Origin: a virus
Length of the DNA stretch: 64,000 bases
IMG/VR virus record: IMGVR_UViG_3300005573_000055
Coordinates: 91,524-155,523 of that record
Strand: one strand, 5' to 3'
Every line of letters starts with the position of its first letter. Positions within the stretch are counted from its first letter, which is position 1. The notes under the pieces were generated by a model. That model saw only the letters and a program-made list of their open reading frames with translations, had not been told where the DNA came from and searched no databases. The position numbers and the translations under genes are program-made. Shown here one piece after another: positions 9,161 to 12,290 of the stretch.

Positions 9161-9250
9161 TGGAAGGCTCATCAGCCCTCCTCCTTTTGTTTGACTGCCC
9201 CACTTTCCCGGGGCTTGGGGTTTTTTAAGGTGGTTTTCTCCACCATCATT

Positions 9251-9299
9251 GCCCCCACGCCAGACTTGAACTGGCTGCTGGCCCTACCCAGGGTGGGGC
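9251..9299 (-). ncRNA. tRNA-like mini-element A (no anticodon arm)
   Basis: GCCCCAC-C-CUGG GUAGGG CCAG-CA-GCCAG UUCAAGU CUGGC-GUGGGGGC. Confidence 0.7.
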
Positions 9300-9319
9300 G
9301 GCAAGGTAGGCAGACGTGA

Positions 9320-9607
9320 CTATTTAATCACGTCGCCTACCTTGTACTCGGGGTTGTGGCTTACTGAAACCACGTATCCCCCGAGTTTGGGGTCAAAAAC
9401 TGCGATGCTGCCGACGGTGTGCGCATACTTATGTATGAGCACTGCGGCTACCGGAAGGGATGCTGGCCCGTTGACTTTTAGCAACGGGATCCCTTTAATT
9501 TCCGGGGCGTTGTCTTTTACAAACTGAACGAGTTCGGCGTTTGTTGCCGGGTCGCCGAACCCGATCGTTAATGTGTCGTTATTAAATGACATATTGAATA
9601 ATGCCAT
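9320..9607 (-). CDS. csx3: Csx3/Crn3-family cyclic oligoadenylate ring nuclease (95 aa)
   Basis: True start ATG 9607 after AAAAGGAGG; TIGFGDPATN, KVNGPASLPVAAVLIH, AVFDPKLGGYVVSVSHNPEYKVGD match the Csx3 family. Confidence 0.85.
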   Translation of the reverse strand: MALFNMSFNNDTLTIGFGDPATNAELVQFVKDNAPEIKGIPLLKVNGPASLPVAAVLIHKYAHTVGSIAVFDPKLGGYVVSVSHNPEYKVGDVIK

Positions 9608-9653
9608 GTTAACCTCCTTTTTAAAGTTATTAAATAATAATTTATGATGAATT

Positions 9654-9709
9654 TGGCTCAGGCGGGACTTGAACACCGCTCTCTCAGGCTTCCAGCAGCC
9701 ACTGAGCCA
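9654..9709 (-). ncRNA. tRNA-like mini-element B (no anticodon arm)
   Basis: GGCUCAG-U-GGCU GCUGGA AGCC-UGAGAGA-GCGG(U)G UUCAAGU CCCGC-CUGAGCC-A. Confidence 0.65.
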
Positions 9710-9711
9710 CC

Positions 9712-10080
9712 ACACAAGCTATCTTAGTAGCTCGATAGCTTGCAGTCTCGCTGATCACCCCTTCCCTTGAGCTCCGATGCTACTATCGTTGCTCAAGGTT
9801 CCGTCGGGTTTACTCAGCTACCCGAAGCCCAATTAGCGTTACCCAGGACGCGCCACGTGGAGGCTTGGGCTTTTGCGTCCCACAACATTACTGGCTAAGT
9901 GGGACAGCCAGTGTCCGTTATGTGGCTGATCCGTGGAGCATTGCACTCCGGTGAGTGGACGCCACATCGGCCTGCTGAGGCGAGGCCACACCTTGGGTCT
10001 TCGAGCCGCTTGGGCGGAATGGGTCCACGGCTCTGAGACCCATAAACCTATAAGCCAGGCTTAGCCTAGCTTATAGGCTA
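9712..10080 (-). ncRNA. putative large structured RNA 1 (~370 nt)
   Basis: No credible ORF; successive stems, H-type pseudoknot at 9877-9912, loop-loop complementarities CUCAGC/GCUGAG and AGUAGC/GCUACU. Confidence 0.6.
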
Positions 10081-10119
10081 TTCTTTATCCCCTTAAAGGG
10101 ACCACATAGACACGGCGGA

Positions 10120-10500
10120 GGTAGGTTGGTTATATGACCCGGGTTAGGTGGGGTCCGCCGCTGATACATGCGAGCAGAGCGAATGTAGACTAAGTAGGTA
10201 TAGCTCTGGCTTCCCGGGTCTGGTTGGTCTTCGCAAGGGAGTGTGTGTAGGCGGAGCGGGTACATGGAAGGTTTTAGCGACCCAGGTTAGGTGGGCACCG
10301 CCGGGTACACATGTGAGGTGGGGACGGAGCCATGGATGGTTTTAGCGACCCATGGAGGGGTGGTAGACTGGGGCGTGTGTGAGGCGGAGCGGAGGTGGGT
10401 TGATTTAGGGTCAACAGGTCAGGTTAGGTTGGCCCAGGTTGGTCAGGCTGGACAGGCCTCCGTTGGGGGCGTGTGTGAGGCGGAGCGGAGGCCTGTCTTG
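10120..10500. repeat. G-rich non-coding region with direct repeats
   Basis: GGGGCGTGTGTGAGGCGGAGCGGAGG x2 (~10370, ~10466) plus a variant at ~10240; GGTTTTAGCGACCCA x2; GGTTAGGTGGG x2. Confidence 0.75.
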
Positions 10501-10866
10501 CTAGTCTAACTCGCTCCAGTCGAAGCCGTTAATTCTAACTACCGGCTTCTTCTTTGTAATCGCTGAAGCGAGTTTCCTAGCGTTGCAATACGCTGGCCGT
10601 GCACCACAATTGACGTGCAGCACTTCGGCAACGATCTCTTTCCAGTTATTCCTCTCTTTGAGACGTTGCACGTACCAGTGCTCCACGTTGGGTCGGGTAT
10701 CTTTGATGCCACTGCCCCATTTGATCTGGATAGCATAAGCTATCCCATCAATTATGACAATGACATCAATCTTGGCCTCGTGGTCAAGGCGTTTATGTGT
10801 AATCACCTCGAATCCACTATTCCTGAGCGCATCGACAATCATGCGCTCGAGGATGAGACCATTCAT
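10501..10866 (-). CDS. PD-(D/E)XK family nuclease
   Basis: E..I...L...GF.V...LDHEAKIDVIV...AIQIK pattern. Confidence 0.65.
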   Translation of the reverse strand: MNGLILERMIVDALRNSGFEVITHKRLDHEAKIDVIVIIDGIAYAIQIKWGSGIKDTRPNVEHWYVQRLKERNNWKEIVAEVLHVNCGARPAYCNARKLASAITKKKPVVRINGFDWSELD

Positions 10867-11357
10867 AATGCCCTCCCGTTGTGGTTTAGCCAGCTACGAT
10901 CTGGCTCGGGCAGCTTCTTATAGCCCTCCTGTGGGTCGAATTGATAGATCTCTACATTGAAATGATGGAGACCTATCAACATCCCTATCAGGGCCGATAG
11001 ACCAATCGGACCGCTGAGGACTAATTTTATCTTGCAATTTTGGTTTTGTGCCATAGCACTGTAAACCTCTGTTGCAAGTTTTTTATAGTCCTCGTCGGTC
11101 ACTAACATTGGTCTACCGAGCACGAGGTTGACGTCTATCAGCGTGTCAAGTTCGCCAAAGTAGGCTTTGACAGCTTCGCTAACAGGACGTCCTACCTGCA
11201 GGGCTATAATATAGTCCTTGCCGCCTTCATTGGCATATTTTTTCTTCTTGGCAATCTTGGTCTGAGACCAGATTTTAACAGTGATTGCCAAGGAGACTAA
11301 TGCCAACAAAGGCTCGGCAATAGCCCAAGCCTGGGAGATGAATTCAAAGAGGTTCAT
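10863..11357 (-). CDS. N-terminal TM helix + SAVED/CARF-like domain protein
   Basis: Hydrophobic N-terminus; KIKLVLSGPIGLSALIG...VEIYQF....Y resembles the SAVED C-terminal half. Confidence 0.55.
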   Translation of the reverse strand: MNLFEFISQAWAIAEPLLALVSLAITVKIWSQTKIAKKKKYANEGGKDYIIALQVGRPVSEAVKAYFGELDTLIDVNLVLGRPMLVTDEDYKKLATEVYSAMAQNQNCKIKLVLSGPIGLSALIGMLIGLHHFNVEIYQFDPQEGYKKLPEPDRSWLNHNGRAL

Positions 11358-11409: not shown

Positions 11410-12231
11410 CTAAACTATCCTGCCTCCGTTATACCAGTACATGAACCCTCCTGGAGCCCATTTTGTCCTAAGCCCCATTCTCAGTTCAGGGAACTTTCTG
11501 GAAACCTCATCAAGATATTCCATAGTGGTCTCCAGCGGCAATGGTCGCCAATCAATTCCAGACACGGGCTTGTATACCCTGACTGTCCAGAATTTATTGT
11601 CGACATTGCCATGCTTAACAACCATCTCTGCGATGTGCAGGAAATCATCCAAGGTGGTTGTAGAAAATACGCATGTGCGTACATCTACAAGCACACCTTT
11701 ATTGCTTAAGATCTCCTGAACACGCAGGGAGTTGTTGAGCATTTTTTCTCCCTGACCGTTTCTGAGGCCAGCGCGCATATTGAATTCTGCGCCGTCTGCG
11801 GCCTTAAGATCAATTGCTGCATAATCCAAATACGGCAGCAGCATTTCAACAAATTTAGGACTGCTGCCATTATGCGCAATTGAAATCTTCTGGCCACGTT
11901 CAGCACAGAAGCGCGCTATATCCATAGAGTCTTTGATAAAGACACAAGGATCGCCTCCAGAAAGACGAATCCTTTCGCCTTTATCTAAGGACTCCTGGAT
12001 CAGAGAGAATATCTCTGAGGCTTTATATCTTCCGGCAGTGATTATGTCACCTTTGTCGGTGACAAACTGCCCGTCGCGTTTGCAATATGGGCAGTGGAAG
12101 TTACACCTGCCGAAAGAGATAATCCTCATCATCTCTATTTCCCTACCAAATAACTTGAGGAAATAGGCCGGTCGCACTTCTGCAGCCGGCTTTCCTCCGT
12201 AGGGAATGAGAGTGAGTATTCTCTCTTTCAT
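11410..12231 (-). CDS. radical SAM protein (PflA/NrdG activase-like)
   Basis: CNFHCPYC, SGGDP, HNGS, DYAAIDLKA, VDVRT; start ATG 12231 after GGAGG. Confidence 0.85.
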   Translation of the reverse strand: MKERILTLIPYGGKPAAEVRPAYFLKLFGREIEMMRIISFGRCNFHCPYCKRDGQFVTDKGDIITAGRYKASEIFSLIQESLDKGERIRLSGGDPCVFIKDSMDIARFCAERGQKISIAHNGSSPKFVEMLLPYLDYAAIDLKAADGAEFNMRAGLRNGQGEKMLNNSLRVQEILSNKGVLVDVRTCVFSTTTLDDFLHIAEMVVKHGNVDNKFWTVRVYKPVSGIDWRPLPLETTMEYLDEVSRKFPELRMGLRTKWAPGGFMYWYNGGRIV

Positions 12232-12290
12232 GTGGCCTCCAGGCTGGAGGTTCATGTTCATTGATTTATTTTATCTATTATCTACTATCC

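What the first reader, a model, noticed from the sequence alone, without database searches (positions are those of the whole stretch)
9712..10080. Large structured RNA 1 upstream of csx3, ending in a tRNA-like element
Seen (minus strand): stems CCUAUAAGC/GCUUAUAGG, UGGGUCU/AGACCCA, AUGUGGC/GCCACAU, AAGCCCAA/UUGGGCUU, UCGGGU/ACCCGA, CCUUGAGC/GCUCAAGG and CAAGCUAUC/GAUAGCUUG. There is a 7+7 bp H-type pseudoknot (9877-9912), and loop-loop matches at 9974-9979 with 9813-9818 and at 9779-9784 with 9726-9731. Inference: a compact RNA in the style of large phage ncRNAs (GOLLD/ROOL class) whose 3' end is made by cleavage at element B. I could not match it to RNase P, tmRNA or intron cores.
Basis: partly seen in the sequence, partly recalled or inferred. 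Interest (0 to 1): 0.75.

Follow-up and report, generated by a model that had tools for sequence, protein, structure and literature searches.

The report
Ribozyme plus tRNA-tailed phage RNA
The "large RNA" in front of this hot-spring phage's anti-CRISPR gene csx3 is really three parts in a row: a run of hairpins seen only in this phage, a self-cutting ribozyme of a published kind, and a conserved ~167-base folded RNA ending in a tRNA look-alike, which matches no Rfam family and whose function is unknown.

Summary
It is not one GOLLD/ROOL-style RNA. It is a composite on the minus strand with three parts.

1. 10079-9884: five hairpins (z -6.3). I found no homolog anywhere.
2. It has P1, P1.1, P2, P3, the catalytic C9836 and a G1·U wobble. 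The predicted cut lies between U9882 and G9881. A related phage has an HDV-like ribozyme at the same place upstream of its csx3, with fully compensatory P1 and P2.
3. 9819-9651: a conserved ~167-nt RNA.

Part 3 recurs in three other phage or metagenome sequences. One copy appears to have its own promoter. Across the three closest sequences, 13 pairs carry double changes, and the kissing loops covary in three sequence versions. It has no Rfam match.

Most likely the ribozyme and the host tRNA-processing enzymes cut the transcript, releasing a small stable RNA and the csx3 mRNA. This processing is inferred, because no RNA data exist.

Theta ribozymes have been found many times before in this scan on other DNA. 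The kissing-loop/mini-tRNA RNA was not among the notes returned by two look-ups.

The parts
9884..10079 (-). 5' hairpin array. Five stable hairpins: 10079-10045 (16 bp), 10042-9994, 9988-9968, 9967-9920 and 9919-9884 (inner stem 9912-9905 / 9897-9890, loop UCCCACU 9904-9898).
   Evidence: MFE -93.7 kcal/mol, z -6.25 against 200 shuffles. No homolog in the related viral genomes or in any fetched locus. Function unknown.
9882..9889 (-). Linker AAUGUUGU. The predicted self-cleavage site is the bond between U9882 and G9881.
   Evidence: The position 5' of G1 of helix P1 follows from the HDV-like fold. L012 has a similar linker, AAUAUAGU, after a similar hairpin.
9825..9881 (-). Theta (minimal HDV-like) self-cleaving ribozyme. 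P1 9881-9875/9851-9845, P2 9872-9865/9832-9825, P3 9864-9862/9854-9852, P1.1 C9860 C9859 / G9844 G9843, L4 GUAACG, catalytic C9836 in J4/2 CUAA.
   Evidence: Rfam HDV_ribozyme 35.6 bits, E 0.0055 over 1.8 kb, full model with P4 deleted. It fits the delimited theta format of Kienbeck 2024 field by field. The strict descriptor gives 1 hit in the real genome and 0 in 90 simulated genomes. Four other sequences share the core with different but paired P1 and P2.
9712..9818 (-). Kissing-loop domain of the conserved RNA. Pa 9818-9814/9754-9750, Pb 9809-9807/9759-9757, hairpin H2 9798-9785/9778-9764 (loop AGUAGC 9784-9779), hairpin H3 9746-9734/9723-9712 (loop 9733-9724). The loop-loop pairing is 9784-9779 with 9731-9726.
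   Evidence: Alignment A2 of window, L020 and L008: 96.4% of cells paired against 30-44% in slid controls, and 13 pairs changed on both sides. The kissing loops covary. The window's own MFE gives the same helices.
9654..9708 (-). Anticodon-less mini-tRNA ('element B'). Acceptor stem 9708-9702/9661-9655, D-like hairpin 9700-9687 (loop GCUGGA), T arm 9679-9662 (5 bp with one bulged U, loop UUCAAGU), discriminator A9654. No CCA is encoded.
   Evidence: Part of model R1, with compensatory changes in the acceptor and T stems. ARAGORN calls no tRNA. The L008 copy encodes A-CCA at its 3' end.
9320..9607 (-). csx3 (95 aa), downstream of the RNA tract. Its Shine-Dalgarno sequence AGGAGG lies 46 nt after the mini-tRNA.
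   Evidence: Pfam Cas_csx3, E 1.5e-11; 168 homologs.
9251..9299 (-). A second mini-tRNA ('element A') directly after the csx3 stop codon, so csx3 is bracketed by two tRNA-like elements.
   Evidence: Sequence read; T-arm repeat D7. A third copy lies at 17600-17552.

Best explanation
The tract is a modular, processed non-coding leader, not a single large RNA.

Transcription on the minus strand first makes an array of five hairpins (10079-9884). Next comes a theta-type minimal HDV-like ribozyme (9881-9825), which folds and cuts its own 5' side between U9882 and G9881. This leaves a 2',3'-cyclic phosphate on the hairpin fragment and a 5'-OH on everything downstream.

Downstream lies a conserved ~167-nt RNA unit (9819-9651). 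It has a kissing-loop domain, in which two helices carry a long hairpin whose loop pairs with the loop of a second hairpin, joined by an invariant UGUGUGG linker to an anticodon-less mini-tRNA.

The mini-tRNA has a 12-bp acceptor/T-arm stack and a canonical T loop. It is most likely recognised by host RNase P at 9709/9708 and by a tRNA 3'-end enzyme near 9654. Those cuts would release three products:
(a) a ~173-nt RNA made of the ribozyme plus the kissing-loop domain;
(b) a ~55-nt mini-tRNA;
(c) a csx3 mRNA with a short AU-rich leader, whose 3' end is set by a second mini-tRNA at 9299-9251.

The 167-nt unit appears to be an RNA gene in its own right. In a related contig it stands alone behind a predicted promoter.

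Shown: the folds, their conservation and their covariation. Inferred: self-cleavage in vivo, the RNase P and 3'-end cuts, and any trans-acting role.
For: Ribozyme:
- HDV model hit over the full model.
- Field-by-field fit to published theta ribozymes.
- 0 descriptor hits in 90 simulated genomes against 1 real hit.
- L012/L013, whose Csx3 is 64% identical, have an HDV-like ribozyme at the syntenic spot upstream of csx3. The core is identical, P1 and P2 are completely different but paired, and a real P4 is present.
- L004 and L005 carry the same core directly after a tRNA 3' end, the classic theta setting.

Conserved unit:
- Model R1 scores window 192.8, L020 194.2, L008/G001 178 and L012 37.6 bits (E 1e-8), with one copy per genome.
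- 13 double changes and 96% of cells paired.
- The kissing loops read GUAGC:GCUAC (window, L020), GCAAC:GUUGC (L008) and CGCCA:UGGCG (L012).
- L020 has TTGACA-17-TATATT about 30 nt upstream and a T run after the unit, followed by a second copy of the same promoter in front of the next gene.

Processing logic:
- Three mini-tRNAs sit exactly at gene borders.
- Related islands carry other self-cleaving ribozymes between genes: pistol at 62.5 bits, above the Rfam cut-off, right after csx3 in L014, and a twister-like hit in L008.
- tRNA-like 't-elements' are accepted RNase P / RNase Z cutting marks for mRNAs in plant mitochondria (PMC1920247).
Against: - No RNA data exist, so neither transcription, nor the cuts, nor the stable products have been seen.
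- The Rfam HDV score is below the family's gathering score (35.6 against 50). The missing P4 explains this but does not remove it.
- The ribozyme and the conserved unit occur apart in the other phages, so their adjacency here may have no joint meaning.
- The upstream loop UCCCAC can pair with nucleotides -2 to +4 of the ribozyme and could block P1.
- Only four distinct sequences of the unit are known, three of them close to each other.
- The 5' hairpin array has no comparative support at all.
- No promoter or terminator was found for the tract in the window.
Confidence: 0.7

Rival explanations
1. One reading: one compact ~370-430-nt RNA of the GOLLD/ROOL kind, held together by long-range contacts, whose 3' end is made by cleavage at the tRNA-like element.
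For: The whole tract folds with z -5.5. A 6-nt match joins a loop of the 5' half (CUCAGC, 9979-9974) to the 3' half (GCUGAG, 9818-9813). Large phage RNAs often lie near tRNAs (own knowledge).
Against: There is no GOLLD or ROOL hit, or any other large-RNA hit, even at E 10. A complete self-cleaving ribozyme lies in the middle. Only the 3' 167 nt recurs elsewhere, without the 5' half. GCUGA has a covarying local partner. A 6-mer match somewhere in about 200 nt is expected by chance about 1 time in 20 (own estimate).
Confidence: 0.06
2. The conserved 167-nt unit is a purely cis-acting processing and stability cassette. The mini-tRNA is a t-element-like cutting mark, and the kissing-loop domain is a compact end structure that protects the neighbouring mRNA or leader from exonucleases. 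It has no function of its own in trans.
For: In three of four cases the unit abuts csx3. Two other mini-tRNAs without any extra domain sit at gene ends. Ribozymes of three classes punctuate the related islands. There is a plant-mitochondrial precedent (PMC1920247).
Against: In L020 the unit lies between two copies of the same promoter and is followed by a T run, like a separate small RNA gene. The linker and the loops are more conserved than a mere protective hairpin would need. The unit sits upstream of csx3 here but downstream of it in L008 and L012.
Confidence: 0.3
3. The unit is a trans-acting counter-defence RNA. It would be a tRNA mimic or decoy, or a Cas- or effector-binding RNA, made together with the Csx3 ring nuclease in an anti-CRISPR / anti-signalling island.
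For: Its neighbours are csx3, a SAVED-domain protein and a radical SAM gene. In L012 a 24-nt copy of the host-type CRISPR repeat, with one mismatch, lies immediately 5' of the unit. Host-type arrays in the same hot-spring samples carry spacers against this locus. The unit appears to be a stand-alone gene in L020.
Against: All of this is circumstantial. No target is known. Adjacency in a small early-gene island may be plain synteny. Motifs in the window that resemble the repeat are not above chance.
Confidence: 0.18
4. Ribozyme cleavage is regulated. The loop of the hairpin just upstream (UCCCAC, 9904-9899) pairs with nucleotides -2 to +4 (GU|GGGA) and holds the P1 strand, so cutting depends on temperature or on co-transcriptional timing.
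For: There are 6 loop base pairs in the window (7 if the closing G is included). L012 has the same layout of hairpin, 7-nt loop and 7-8-nt linker, and its loop CCC(G)CAC can pair with GU|GGGG. The pair at +4 changes from U-A to C-G. Upstream alternative pairings are known to modulate the HDV ribozyme (own knowledge).
Against: The paired segments are mostly conserved rather than covarying. L012 needs a bulge. L003 shows no such complementarity. The nested MFE fold prefers P1 plus P3.
Confidence: 0.15

Closest known systems
Theta ribozymes: minimal HDV-like ribozymes of Caudoviricetes (Kienbeck et al. 2024, Nat Commun, PMC10879173); minimal drz-Mtgn-type ribozymes
   Same: Same nested double-pseudoknot layout and the same field lengths and core letters: P3 GCC/GGC, L3 U-CC-ACGU, P1.1 GG, a 6-nt L4 in place of P4, and J4/2 CUAA with the catalytic C. 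Found in a tailed-phage-type genome, in a non-coding region, in sense with the neighbouring genes.
   Different: Its cut site is not at a tRNA 3' end (58% of published occurrences are). It belongs to the published 'isolated' class, whose function is unknown. It comes from a hot-spring phage whose likely host is an Ignavibacteriota member, whereas the published set is over 80% gut phages with Bacteroidota or Bacillota hosts. It sits directly 5' of a conserved tRNA-tailed RNA.
Plant mitochondrial t-elements (Forner et al. 2007, PMC1920247) and, from my own knowledge, the MALAT1-mascRNA arrangement and MHV68 tRNA-miRNA (TMER) transcripts
   Same: An incomplete tRNA shape with a good T arm and acceptor stem lies at the border of another RNA, where RNase P and RNase Z cuts would create the neighbour's ends.
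   Different: Those are eukaryotic or organellar. Here the element is in a phage, has no anticodon arm at all, and in one case is fused through an invariant linker to a conserved kissing-loop domain. Cleavage has not been shown here.
Phage T4 stable RNAs C and D and the phage T5 stable RNAs (tRNA-shaped RNAs of unknown function). This lead came from earlier notes of this scan and from my own knowledge.
   Same: Small, stable-looking phage RNAs with tRNA-like parts that cannot decode. They are probably cut out by tRNA-processing enzymes, and their function is unknown.
   Different: There is no sequence similarity: a blastn search of 9200-10600 against 50,697 phage records found nothing. The architecture differs (a 5' kissing-loop domain plus an anticodon-less minihelix). 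The unit is not in a tRNA cluster; no tRNA gene was found in the 64-kb window.
GOLLD and ROOL large phage RNAs (Rfam)
   Same: Phage-borne, strongly structured and non-coding, with loop-loop pairings.
   Different: No model match. The conserved unit is 167 nt, not over 500. The tract is divided by a self-cleaving ribozyme.
tRNA-like domain of tmRNA
   Same: Acceptor stem, T arm and a D-like loop without an anticodon arm. L012, a related phage, carries a separate 135-nt element that passes the Rfam tmRNA cut-off (63.9 bits).
   Different: Element B gives no tmRNA hit. It has G1-C72, G2-C71 and C3-G70 rather than the G3·U70 alanine mark, and its two halves are contiguous.

Membership tests
Theta / minimal HDV-like ribozyme | Nested double pseudoknot: P1 (6-7 bp), P1.1 (2 bp), P2 and P3 (3 bp) in the canonical order | tested here: met
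   P1 GGGACGC/GCGUCCU, P2 AAGCCCAA/UUGGGCUU, P3 GCC/GGC and P1.1 CC/GG are all present in order.
Theta / minimal HDV-like ribozyme | Catalytic cytosine at the first position of J4/2 | tested here: met
   C9836 in CUAA, aligned to the catalytic region of the Rfam HDV model (GCUAAU). It has the same J4/2 as published theta examples.
Theta / minimal HDV-like ribozyme | G at +1, closing P1 with a G·U or G-C pair | tested here: met
   G9881·U9845.
Theta / minimal HDV-like ribozyme | P4 absent or reduced to a short loop | tested here: met
   L4 is GUAACG, 6 nt. The Rfam alignment shows 1 nt where the model has 30. The syntenic L012 copy has a 5-bp P4 with a GAAA loop.
Theta / minimal HDV-like ribozyme | Score at or above the Rfam gathering score of an HDV-type model | tested here: not met
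   RF00094 gives 35.6 bits against 50, and RF02682 gives 26.6 against 44. Both models expect a P4. This is a limit of the models, not of the fold.
Theta / minimal HDV-like ribozyme | Helices kept by compensatory change in related sequences | tested here: met
   Five sequences share an identical core. All 7 P1 pairs and 7-9 P2 pairs differ in sequence yet stay paired.
Theta / minimal HDV-like ribozyme | Self-cleavage 5' of G1 | not testable with these tools
   Needs in vitro transcription. No RNA run holds the locus.
tRNA-associated theta ribozyme (subclass) | Cut site within +/-5 nt of a tRNA 3' end | tested here: not met
   No tRNA or T loop lies upstream of 9881. The nearest tRNA-like element is 116 nt downstream of the ribozyme's 3' end.
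GOLLD / ROOL large RNAs | Match to the Rfam covariance model | tested here: not met
   No hit at the gathering score in the window, nor at E up to 10 in 9200-11000.
Canonical tRNA | Cloverleaf with an anticodon arm, detectable by ARAGORN or the Rfam tRNA model | tested here: not met
   0 tRNAs in the window and no RF00005 hit. A 7-nt strand replaces the anticodon arm.
RNase P / RNase Z substrate of the t-element kind (works-like, not homology) | Acceptor stem stacked on a T arm with a UUCRANY-type T loop and a GG-bearing D-like loop | tested here: met
   7-bp acceptor stem, 5-bp T stem, loop UUCAAGU and D-like loop GCUGGA. Compensatory changes occur in both stems.
RNase P / RNase Z substrate of the t-element kind (works-like, not homology) | Cleavage at the 5' and 3' borders of the element | not testable with these tools
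   Needs an enzyme assay or end-mapping.
Kissing-loop/mini-tRNA phage RNA (defined here; model R1) | Pa, Pb, H2, H3, the H2-H3 loop pairing, the linker and the mini-tRNA in this order | tested here: met
   Window 9819-9651 scores 192.8 bits. Members are L020, L008/G001 and L012/L013. It was not found in 151 Ignavibacteriota genomes.

The most novel reading that the evidence does not exclude
The 167-nt kissing-loop/mini-tRNA RNA is a new class of phage counter-defence RNA. The theta ribozyme and host tRNA-processing enzymes would free it from the csx3 transcript, and it would then act in trans, either as a tRNA-shaped decoy or as a binder of a host CRISPR or other immune component. In that case the assorted ribozymes and tRNA-like marks in these islands would form one RNA-processing system for an anti-defence operon.
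Probability: 0.15. Interest if true: 0.85.

Novelty: new variant of a known kind. Interest (0 to 1): 0.6.

Why it matters
Three points would interest specialists.

1. The finding puts a theta ribozyme in a defined, conserved setting that is not a tRNA 3' end: the leader of a phage ring-nuclease gene, in two diverged hot-spring phages. About 40% of published theta occurrences (526 of 1,281) are not at tRNA ends and have no explanation, so a syntenic pair with a nameable downstream gene offers a testable case.

2. It defines a small structured RNA family that matches no Rfam model. The kissing-loop contact covaries in three sequence versions, and the RNA ends in an anticodon-less tRNA shape. It adds to the long-unsolved group of tRNA-shaped phage RNAs, this time with a compact fold suited to structure determination.

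3. The related islands carry HDV-like, pistol and twister-like ribozymes together with several tRNA-like elements between short early genes. This suggests that these phages cut their early transcripts with a mix of self-cleaving RNAs and borrowed tRNA-processing enzymes, which RNA end-mapping on hot-spring samples or a cultured Rosettibacter host could test.

Tried and rejected
- Rfam at gathering score on the whole window: 0 hits. ARAGORN: 0 tRNAs or tmRNAs.
- blastn of 9200-10600 against 50,697 phage records: no match.
- Protein-guided searches of IMG/VR with Csx3, the 121-aa neighbour and the 920-aa protein: no relatives. The 121-aa protein has no homolog among 5.8 billion proteins.
- Mini-tRNA A/C pattern in viral contigs: 0 hits. 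A second pattern for the conserved unit found only G001 again.
- The one metagenome scan gave one new member, L020.
- The 5' hairpin array and the C-rich repeat region (9882-10500) against G001-G003 and all loci: nothing but self matches.
- Sequencing runs: no RNA holder is listed. Two DNA runs from hot-spring metagenomes hold the stretch. In run X2 no contig was laid on 9576-10467, and the tool warns that such a hole proves nothing.
- Model R1 in Rosettibacter gave one weak hit, which is an ordinary tRNA-Leu. There was no hit in 151 Ignavibacteriota genomes, none in seven loci (L025-L029, L015, L016) from five further csx3 contexts (the other four loci searched there are duplicate copies of known members), and L017 and L018 also lack it.
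- HDV model on G001: no hit.
- The idea that the window motif AATCGAACTACATTAG(C/T)ATTG is a copy of the host CRISPR repeat: its alignment score of 24 is below the best score of 28 in a shuffled genome, so it was rejected.
- Similarity of CAAGGGAGGGG in 'RNA 2' (18345-18830) to the unit: R1 finds nothing there, so it is treated as chance.
- Small ORFs inside the tract (41 and 50 aa): by my reading of the sequence they have no Shine-Dalgarno sequence, and the homologs differ by compensatory changes and by 1-2-nt indels, so a coding role was rejected.
- MAFFT misplaced the P4 insert of L012, so the ribozyme pairs were tabulated by script instead.
- Sigma-70 promoter and terminator scan: nothing convincing on the minus strand between 10500 and 9650.

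Full report
**Setting.** The window is the right-hand 64 kb of a 155,523-bp IMG/VR virus record that is 88% complete. The locus is held by two hot-spring metagenome DNA runs.

All genes around the finding run on the minus strand:
- a 920-aa protein with no Pfam match;
- a radical SAM protein;
- a small SAVED-domain protein;
- a 121-aa orphan;
- about 890 nt without a credible gene (10500-9608);
- csx3 (9607-9320; Pfam Cas_csx3, E 1.5e-11).

GC content rises to 0.52-0.54 in this gap, against 0.36-0.45 around it.

**The observation.** The tract 10085-9655 folds with z -5.5 against dinucleotide shuffles. The structure is therefore real and well above chance. The open question is what it consists of.

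**A ribozyme in the middle.** Rfam at gathering score finds nothing in the window. A sensitive scan of 9200-11000 puts the HDV ribozyme model on 9883-9824 over its whole length, with the P4 arm deleted (35.6 bits, E 0.0055). The F. prausnitzii HDV-like model falls on the same place.

Read directly, the sequence has every element of the fold:
- P1 GGGACGC/GCGUCCU, closed by G9881·U9845;
- P3 GCC/GGC;
- L3 UCCACGU, whose CC pairs with G9844 G9843 to form P1.1;
- a 6-nt loop in place of P4;
- J4/2 CUAA, with the catalytic C at 9836.

This is field for field the format in which Kienbeck et al. list their theta ribozymes, which are minimal HDV-like ribozymes of tailed phages (PMC10879173; supplementary lists read; parse).

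A strict descriptor finds this one site in the real genome. It finds none in 60 simulated genomes of the same dinucleotide make-up, nor in 30 of the local GC-rich make-up.

A pattern made of the core with free P1 letters pulls three sequences out of IMG/VR. Their P1 and P2 are entirely different yet paired. Two of them lie directly after a tRNA 3' end, which is the classic theta setting.

**The same ribozyme in a relative.** Csx3 homologs led to related phage contigs with the same island. In L012/L013 (Csx3 64% identical; radical SAM and SAVED genes also conserved) an HDV-like ribozyme lies at the same spot upstream of csx3. Its core is identical, P1 and P2 are fully compensatory, and a proper P4 hairpin is present.

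I regard the ribozyme as established at the level of sequence and comparison. Activity is untested. The predicted cut is between U9882 and G9881.

**The 3' part is a conserved RNA unit.** The contig L008, which also appears as the 154-kb IMG/VR record G001, carries downstream of its csx3 a stretch plainly alignable with window 9819-9651. A pattern from the shared part found one more copy in a metagenome contig, L020.

In the three-sequence alignment 87% of columns are identical, and the differences sit in helices. With the structure I derived:
- 96.4% of cells pair, against 30-44% when partners are slid by 1-3 columns;
- 13 of 56 pairs change on both sides;
- none of 500 shuffles reaches this.

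With only three sequences, the slid controls and the pair types carry the argument, not the shuffle count.

The fold, from 5' to 3':
- Pa (GCUGA/UCAGC);
- Pb (ACC/GGU);
- a long hairpin H2;
- a 3-nt joint;
- hairpin H3;
- the invariant linker UGUGUGG;
- a mini-tRNA with a 7-bp acceptor stem, a 4-bp D-like hairpin with GG in its loop, a 7-nt strand in place of the anticodon arm, and a T arm with the loop UUCAAGU.

The loops of H2 and H3 are complementary. The complementarity is kept with different letters: GUAGC:GCUAC in the window and L020, and GCAAC:GUUGC in L008.

A covariance model of the unit (R1) finds one copy per genome in G000 and G001. It also finds a fourth, much more distant member downstream of csx3 in L012/L013 (37.6 bits, E about 1e-8).

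The independent MFE fold of that sequence gives the same architecture, with loops CCGCCA and GUGGCGA. These can again pair, as CGCCA:UGGCG.

No Rfam family matches the unit. Nothing like it turned up in 151 Ignavibacteriota genomes. Two look-ups of the earlier notes of this scan returned nothing like it either.

The stem UCGGGU/ACCCGA is not kept in register in the homologs. Its loop GCUGA is the 5' strand of Pa, which covaries (G-C to A-U) and which the window's own MFE also forms. The distant CUCAGC at 9979-9974 is therefore probably a chance partner, or a competitor found only in this phage.

**Context of the unit.**
- In L020 the unit has TTGACA-17-TATATT about 30 nt upstream and a T run after the mini-tRNA. 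The same promoter sequence then recurs in front of the next gene. That gene is 81% identical to the window's 308-aa ORF. By these predicted signals the unit looks like a small RNA gene of its own there.
- In L008 and L012 it follows csx3.
- In the window it precedes csx3 and directly follows the ribozyme.
- The L008 copy encodes A-CCA at the 3' end of the mini-tRNA.

**The 5' part.** Positions 10079-9884 form five hairpins (z -6.25). I found no homolog in the relatives or in any fetched DNA.

L012 also has a hairpin array (z -5.4) between a good extended -10 box (TGGTATAAAT) and its ribozyme. The two arrays share only the last element: a 8-9-bp hairpin with a 7-nt loop, followed by a 7-8-nt linker (AAUGUUGU and AAUAUAGU).

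In both phages that loop can pair with nucleotides -2 to +4 of the ribozyme. It would exclude P1, so it may delay or regulate cleavage. The evidence is one compensatory position, and the L012 pairing needs a bulge, so I rate it as only suggestive.

**How it most likely works.**

Shown:
- a complete theta ribozyme;
- a conserved, covarying 167-nt RNA ending in a tRNA shape;
- two further mini-tRNAs at gene ends (9299-9251 right after csx3, and 17600-17552 right after an ATPase-like gene);
- other self-cleaving ribozymes between genes in the related islands: pistol above its Rfam cut-off just after csx3 in L014, a twister-like hit in L008, and a tmRNA-like tRNA domain in L012.

Inferred:
- the ribozyme cuts during transcription at 9882/9881;
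- host RNase P cuts at 9709/9708;
- a tRNA 3'-end enzyme cuts near 9654.

These cuts would give a ~173-nt RNA (ribozyme plus kissing-loop domain), a ~55-nt mini-tRNA, and a csx3 mRNA bounded by two tRNA-like marks. This parallels the t-elements of plant mitochondria (PMC1920247).

Whether the conserved unit acts only in cis or also in trans is open. The stand-alone L020 copy and the anti-defence neighbourhood favour a function of its own, but nothing shows which.

**Comparison with what is known.** The ribozyme is a member of the published theta / minimal HDV-like group, in its 'isolated' subclass. It is new in habitat and likely host lineage, and in having a syntenic partner. The scan has logged many theta ribozymes on other DNA.

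The conserved unit resembles, in kind only, the tRNA-shaped stable RNAs of phages T4 and T5 and other tRNA-like processing marks. It shares no sequence with any of the 50,697 phage records searched. It is not GOLLD or ROOL.

**Verdict.** The finding is a composite of a known ribozyme type and an apparently undescribed small RNA family. Interest is 0.6.

Noticed in passing
window 9527-9565 and ~10062-10098; L006, L007: Short contigs from the two hot-spring runs carry a 39-nt piece of csx3 flanked on both sides by GTTTGAATCGAACCATAGTGGAATTGTG. A second junction of that repeat to phage DNA lies at 10099. The repeat is the CRISPR repeat of Rosettibacter primus 4148-Me (Ignavibacteriota, Melioribacteraceae), with 24 exact copies in two arrays. 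So the host is probably a Rosettibacter relative that holds spacers against this locus. From the leader side of array L007, the crRNAs would be complementary to minus-strand transcripts.
   Followed up: partly
L012:4362-4385: A solitary copy of that CRISPR repeat (24 nt, one mismatch, with a different 3' end) lies in a related phage between csx3 and its copy of the conserved RNA unit. This is a candidate repeat mimic of the RNA anti-CRISPR kind. No significant copy exists in this window.
   Followed up: partly
L014:4367-4431; L008:7358-7409; L012:6613-6747: Related phage islands carry other small RNAs between genes. A pistol ribozyme (62.5 bits, above the Rfam cut-off) lies right after csx3. 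There is a twister-P1-like hit (39.9 bits, below the cut-off). A 135-nt tmRNA-like tRNA domain with G3·U70 scores 63.9 bits, above the cut-off.
   Followed up: no
window 10086-10500 (minus strand): A C-rich, G-poor stretch with direct repeats: CCUCCGCUCCGCCUCACACACGCCCC twice, and ACCUAACCUGGGUCGCUAAAACC(A/U)UCCAUG two or three times, at 70-140-nt spacing. CUCCGC and ACACAC runs recur in the intergenic regions of all related islands. These could be regulator sites, iterons or promoter elements; this is unresolved.
   Followed up: no
window 9110-8975 and 8690-8615 (minus strand): A repeated intergenic module: the hairpin GCGG(U/C)GGCUAAAAGG(G/A)(G/A)AGCCGCC, then ACACACAC runs, then AAUCGAACUACAUUAG(C/U)AUUG about 40 nt before a start codon. 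It is probably a terminator-plus-promoter unit of the early region.
   Followed up: no
window 10863-11357 and 11410-12261 (minus strand): A 164-aa protein that is little more than a SAVED domain (E 3e-7) sits next to a radical SAM protein. Both are conserved next to csx3 in L012. This is a possible cyclic-nucleotide sponge in the same counter-defence island.
   Followed up: no
L007:2090-3616: The 508-aa gene 3.5 kb from the Rosettibacter array L007, on its leader side, has a weak Card1-like endonuclease hit (E 6.6e-4, below the cut-off). This would fit cA4-dependent type III signalling in the host and a phage Csx3 that answers it.
   Followed up: no
L017:224-360 and L014:3820-3850: Leaders upstream of csx3 in two other relatives contain UUUCCUCCUCCUUUU in hairpin contexts, giving weak hits to the alphaproteobacterial ar14 sRNA model. 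These are anti-Shine-Dalgarno-like motifs that might control translation.
   Followed up: no
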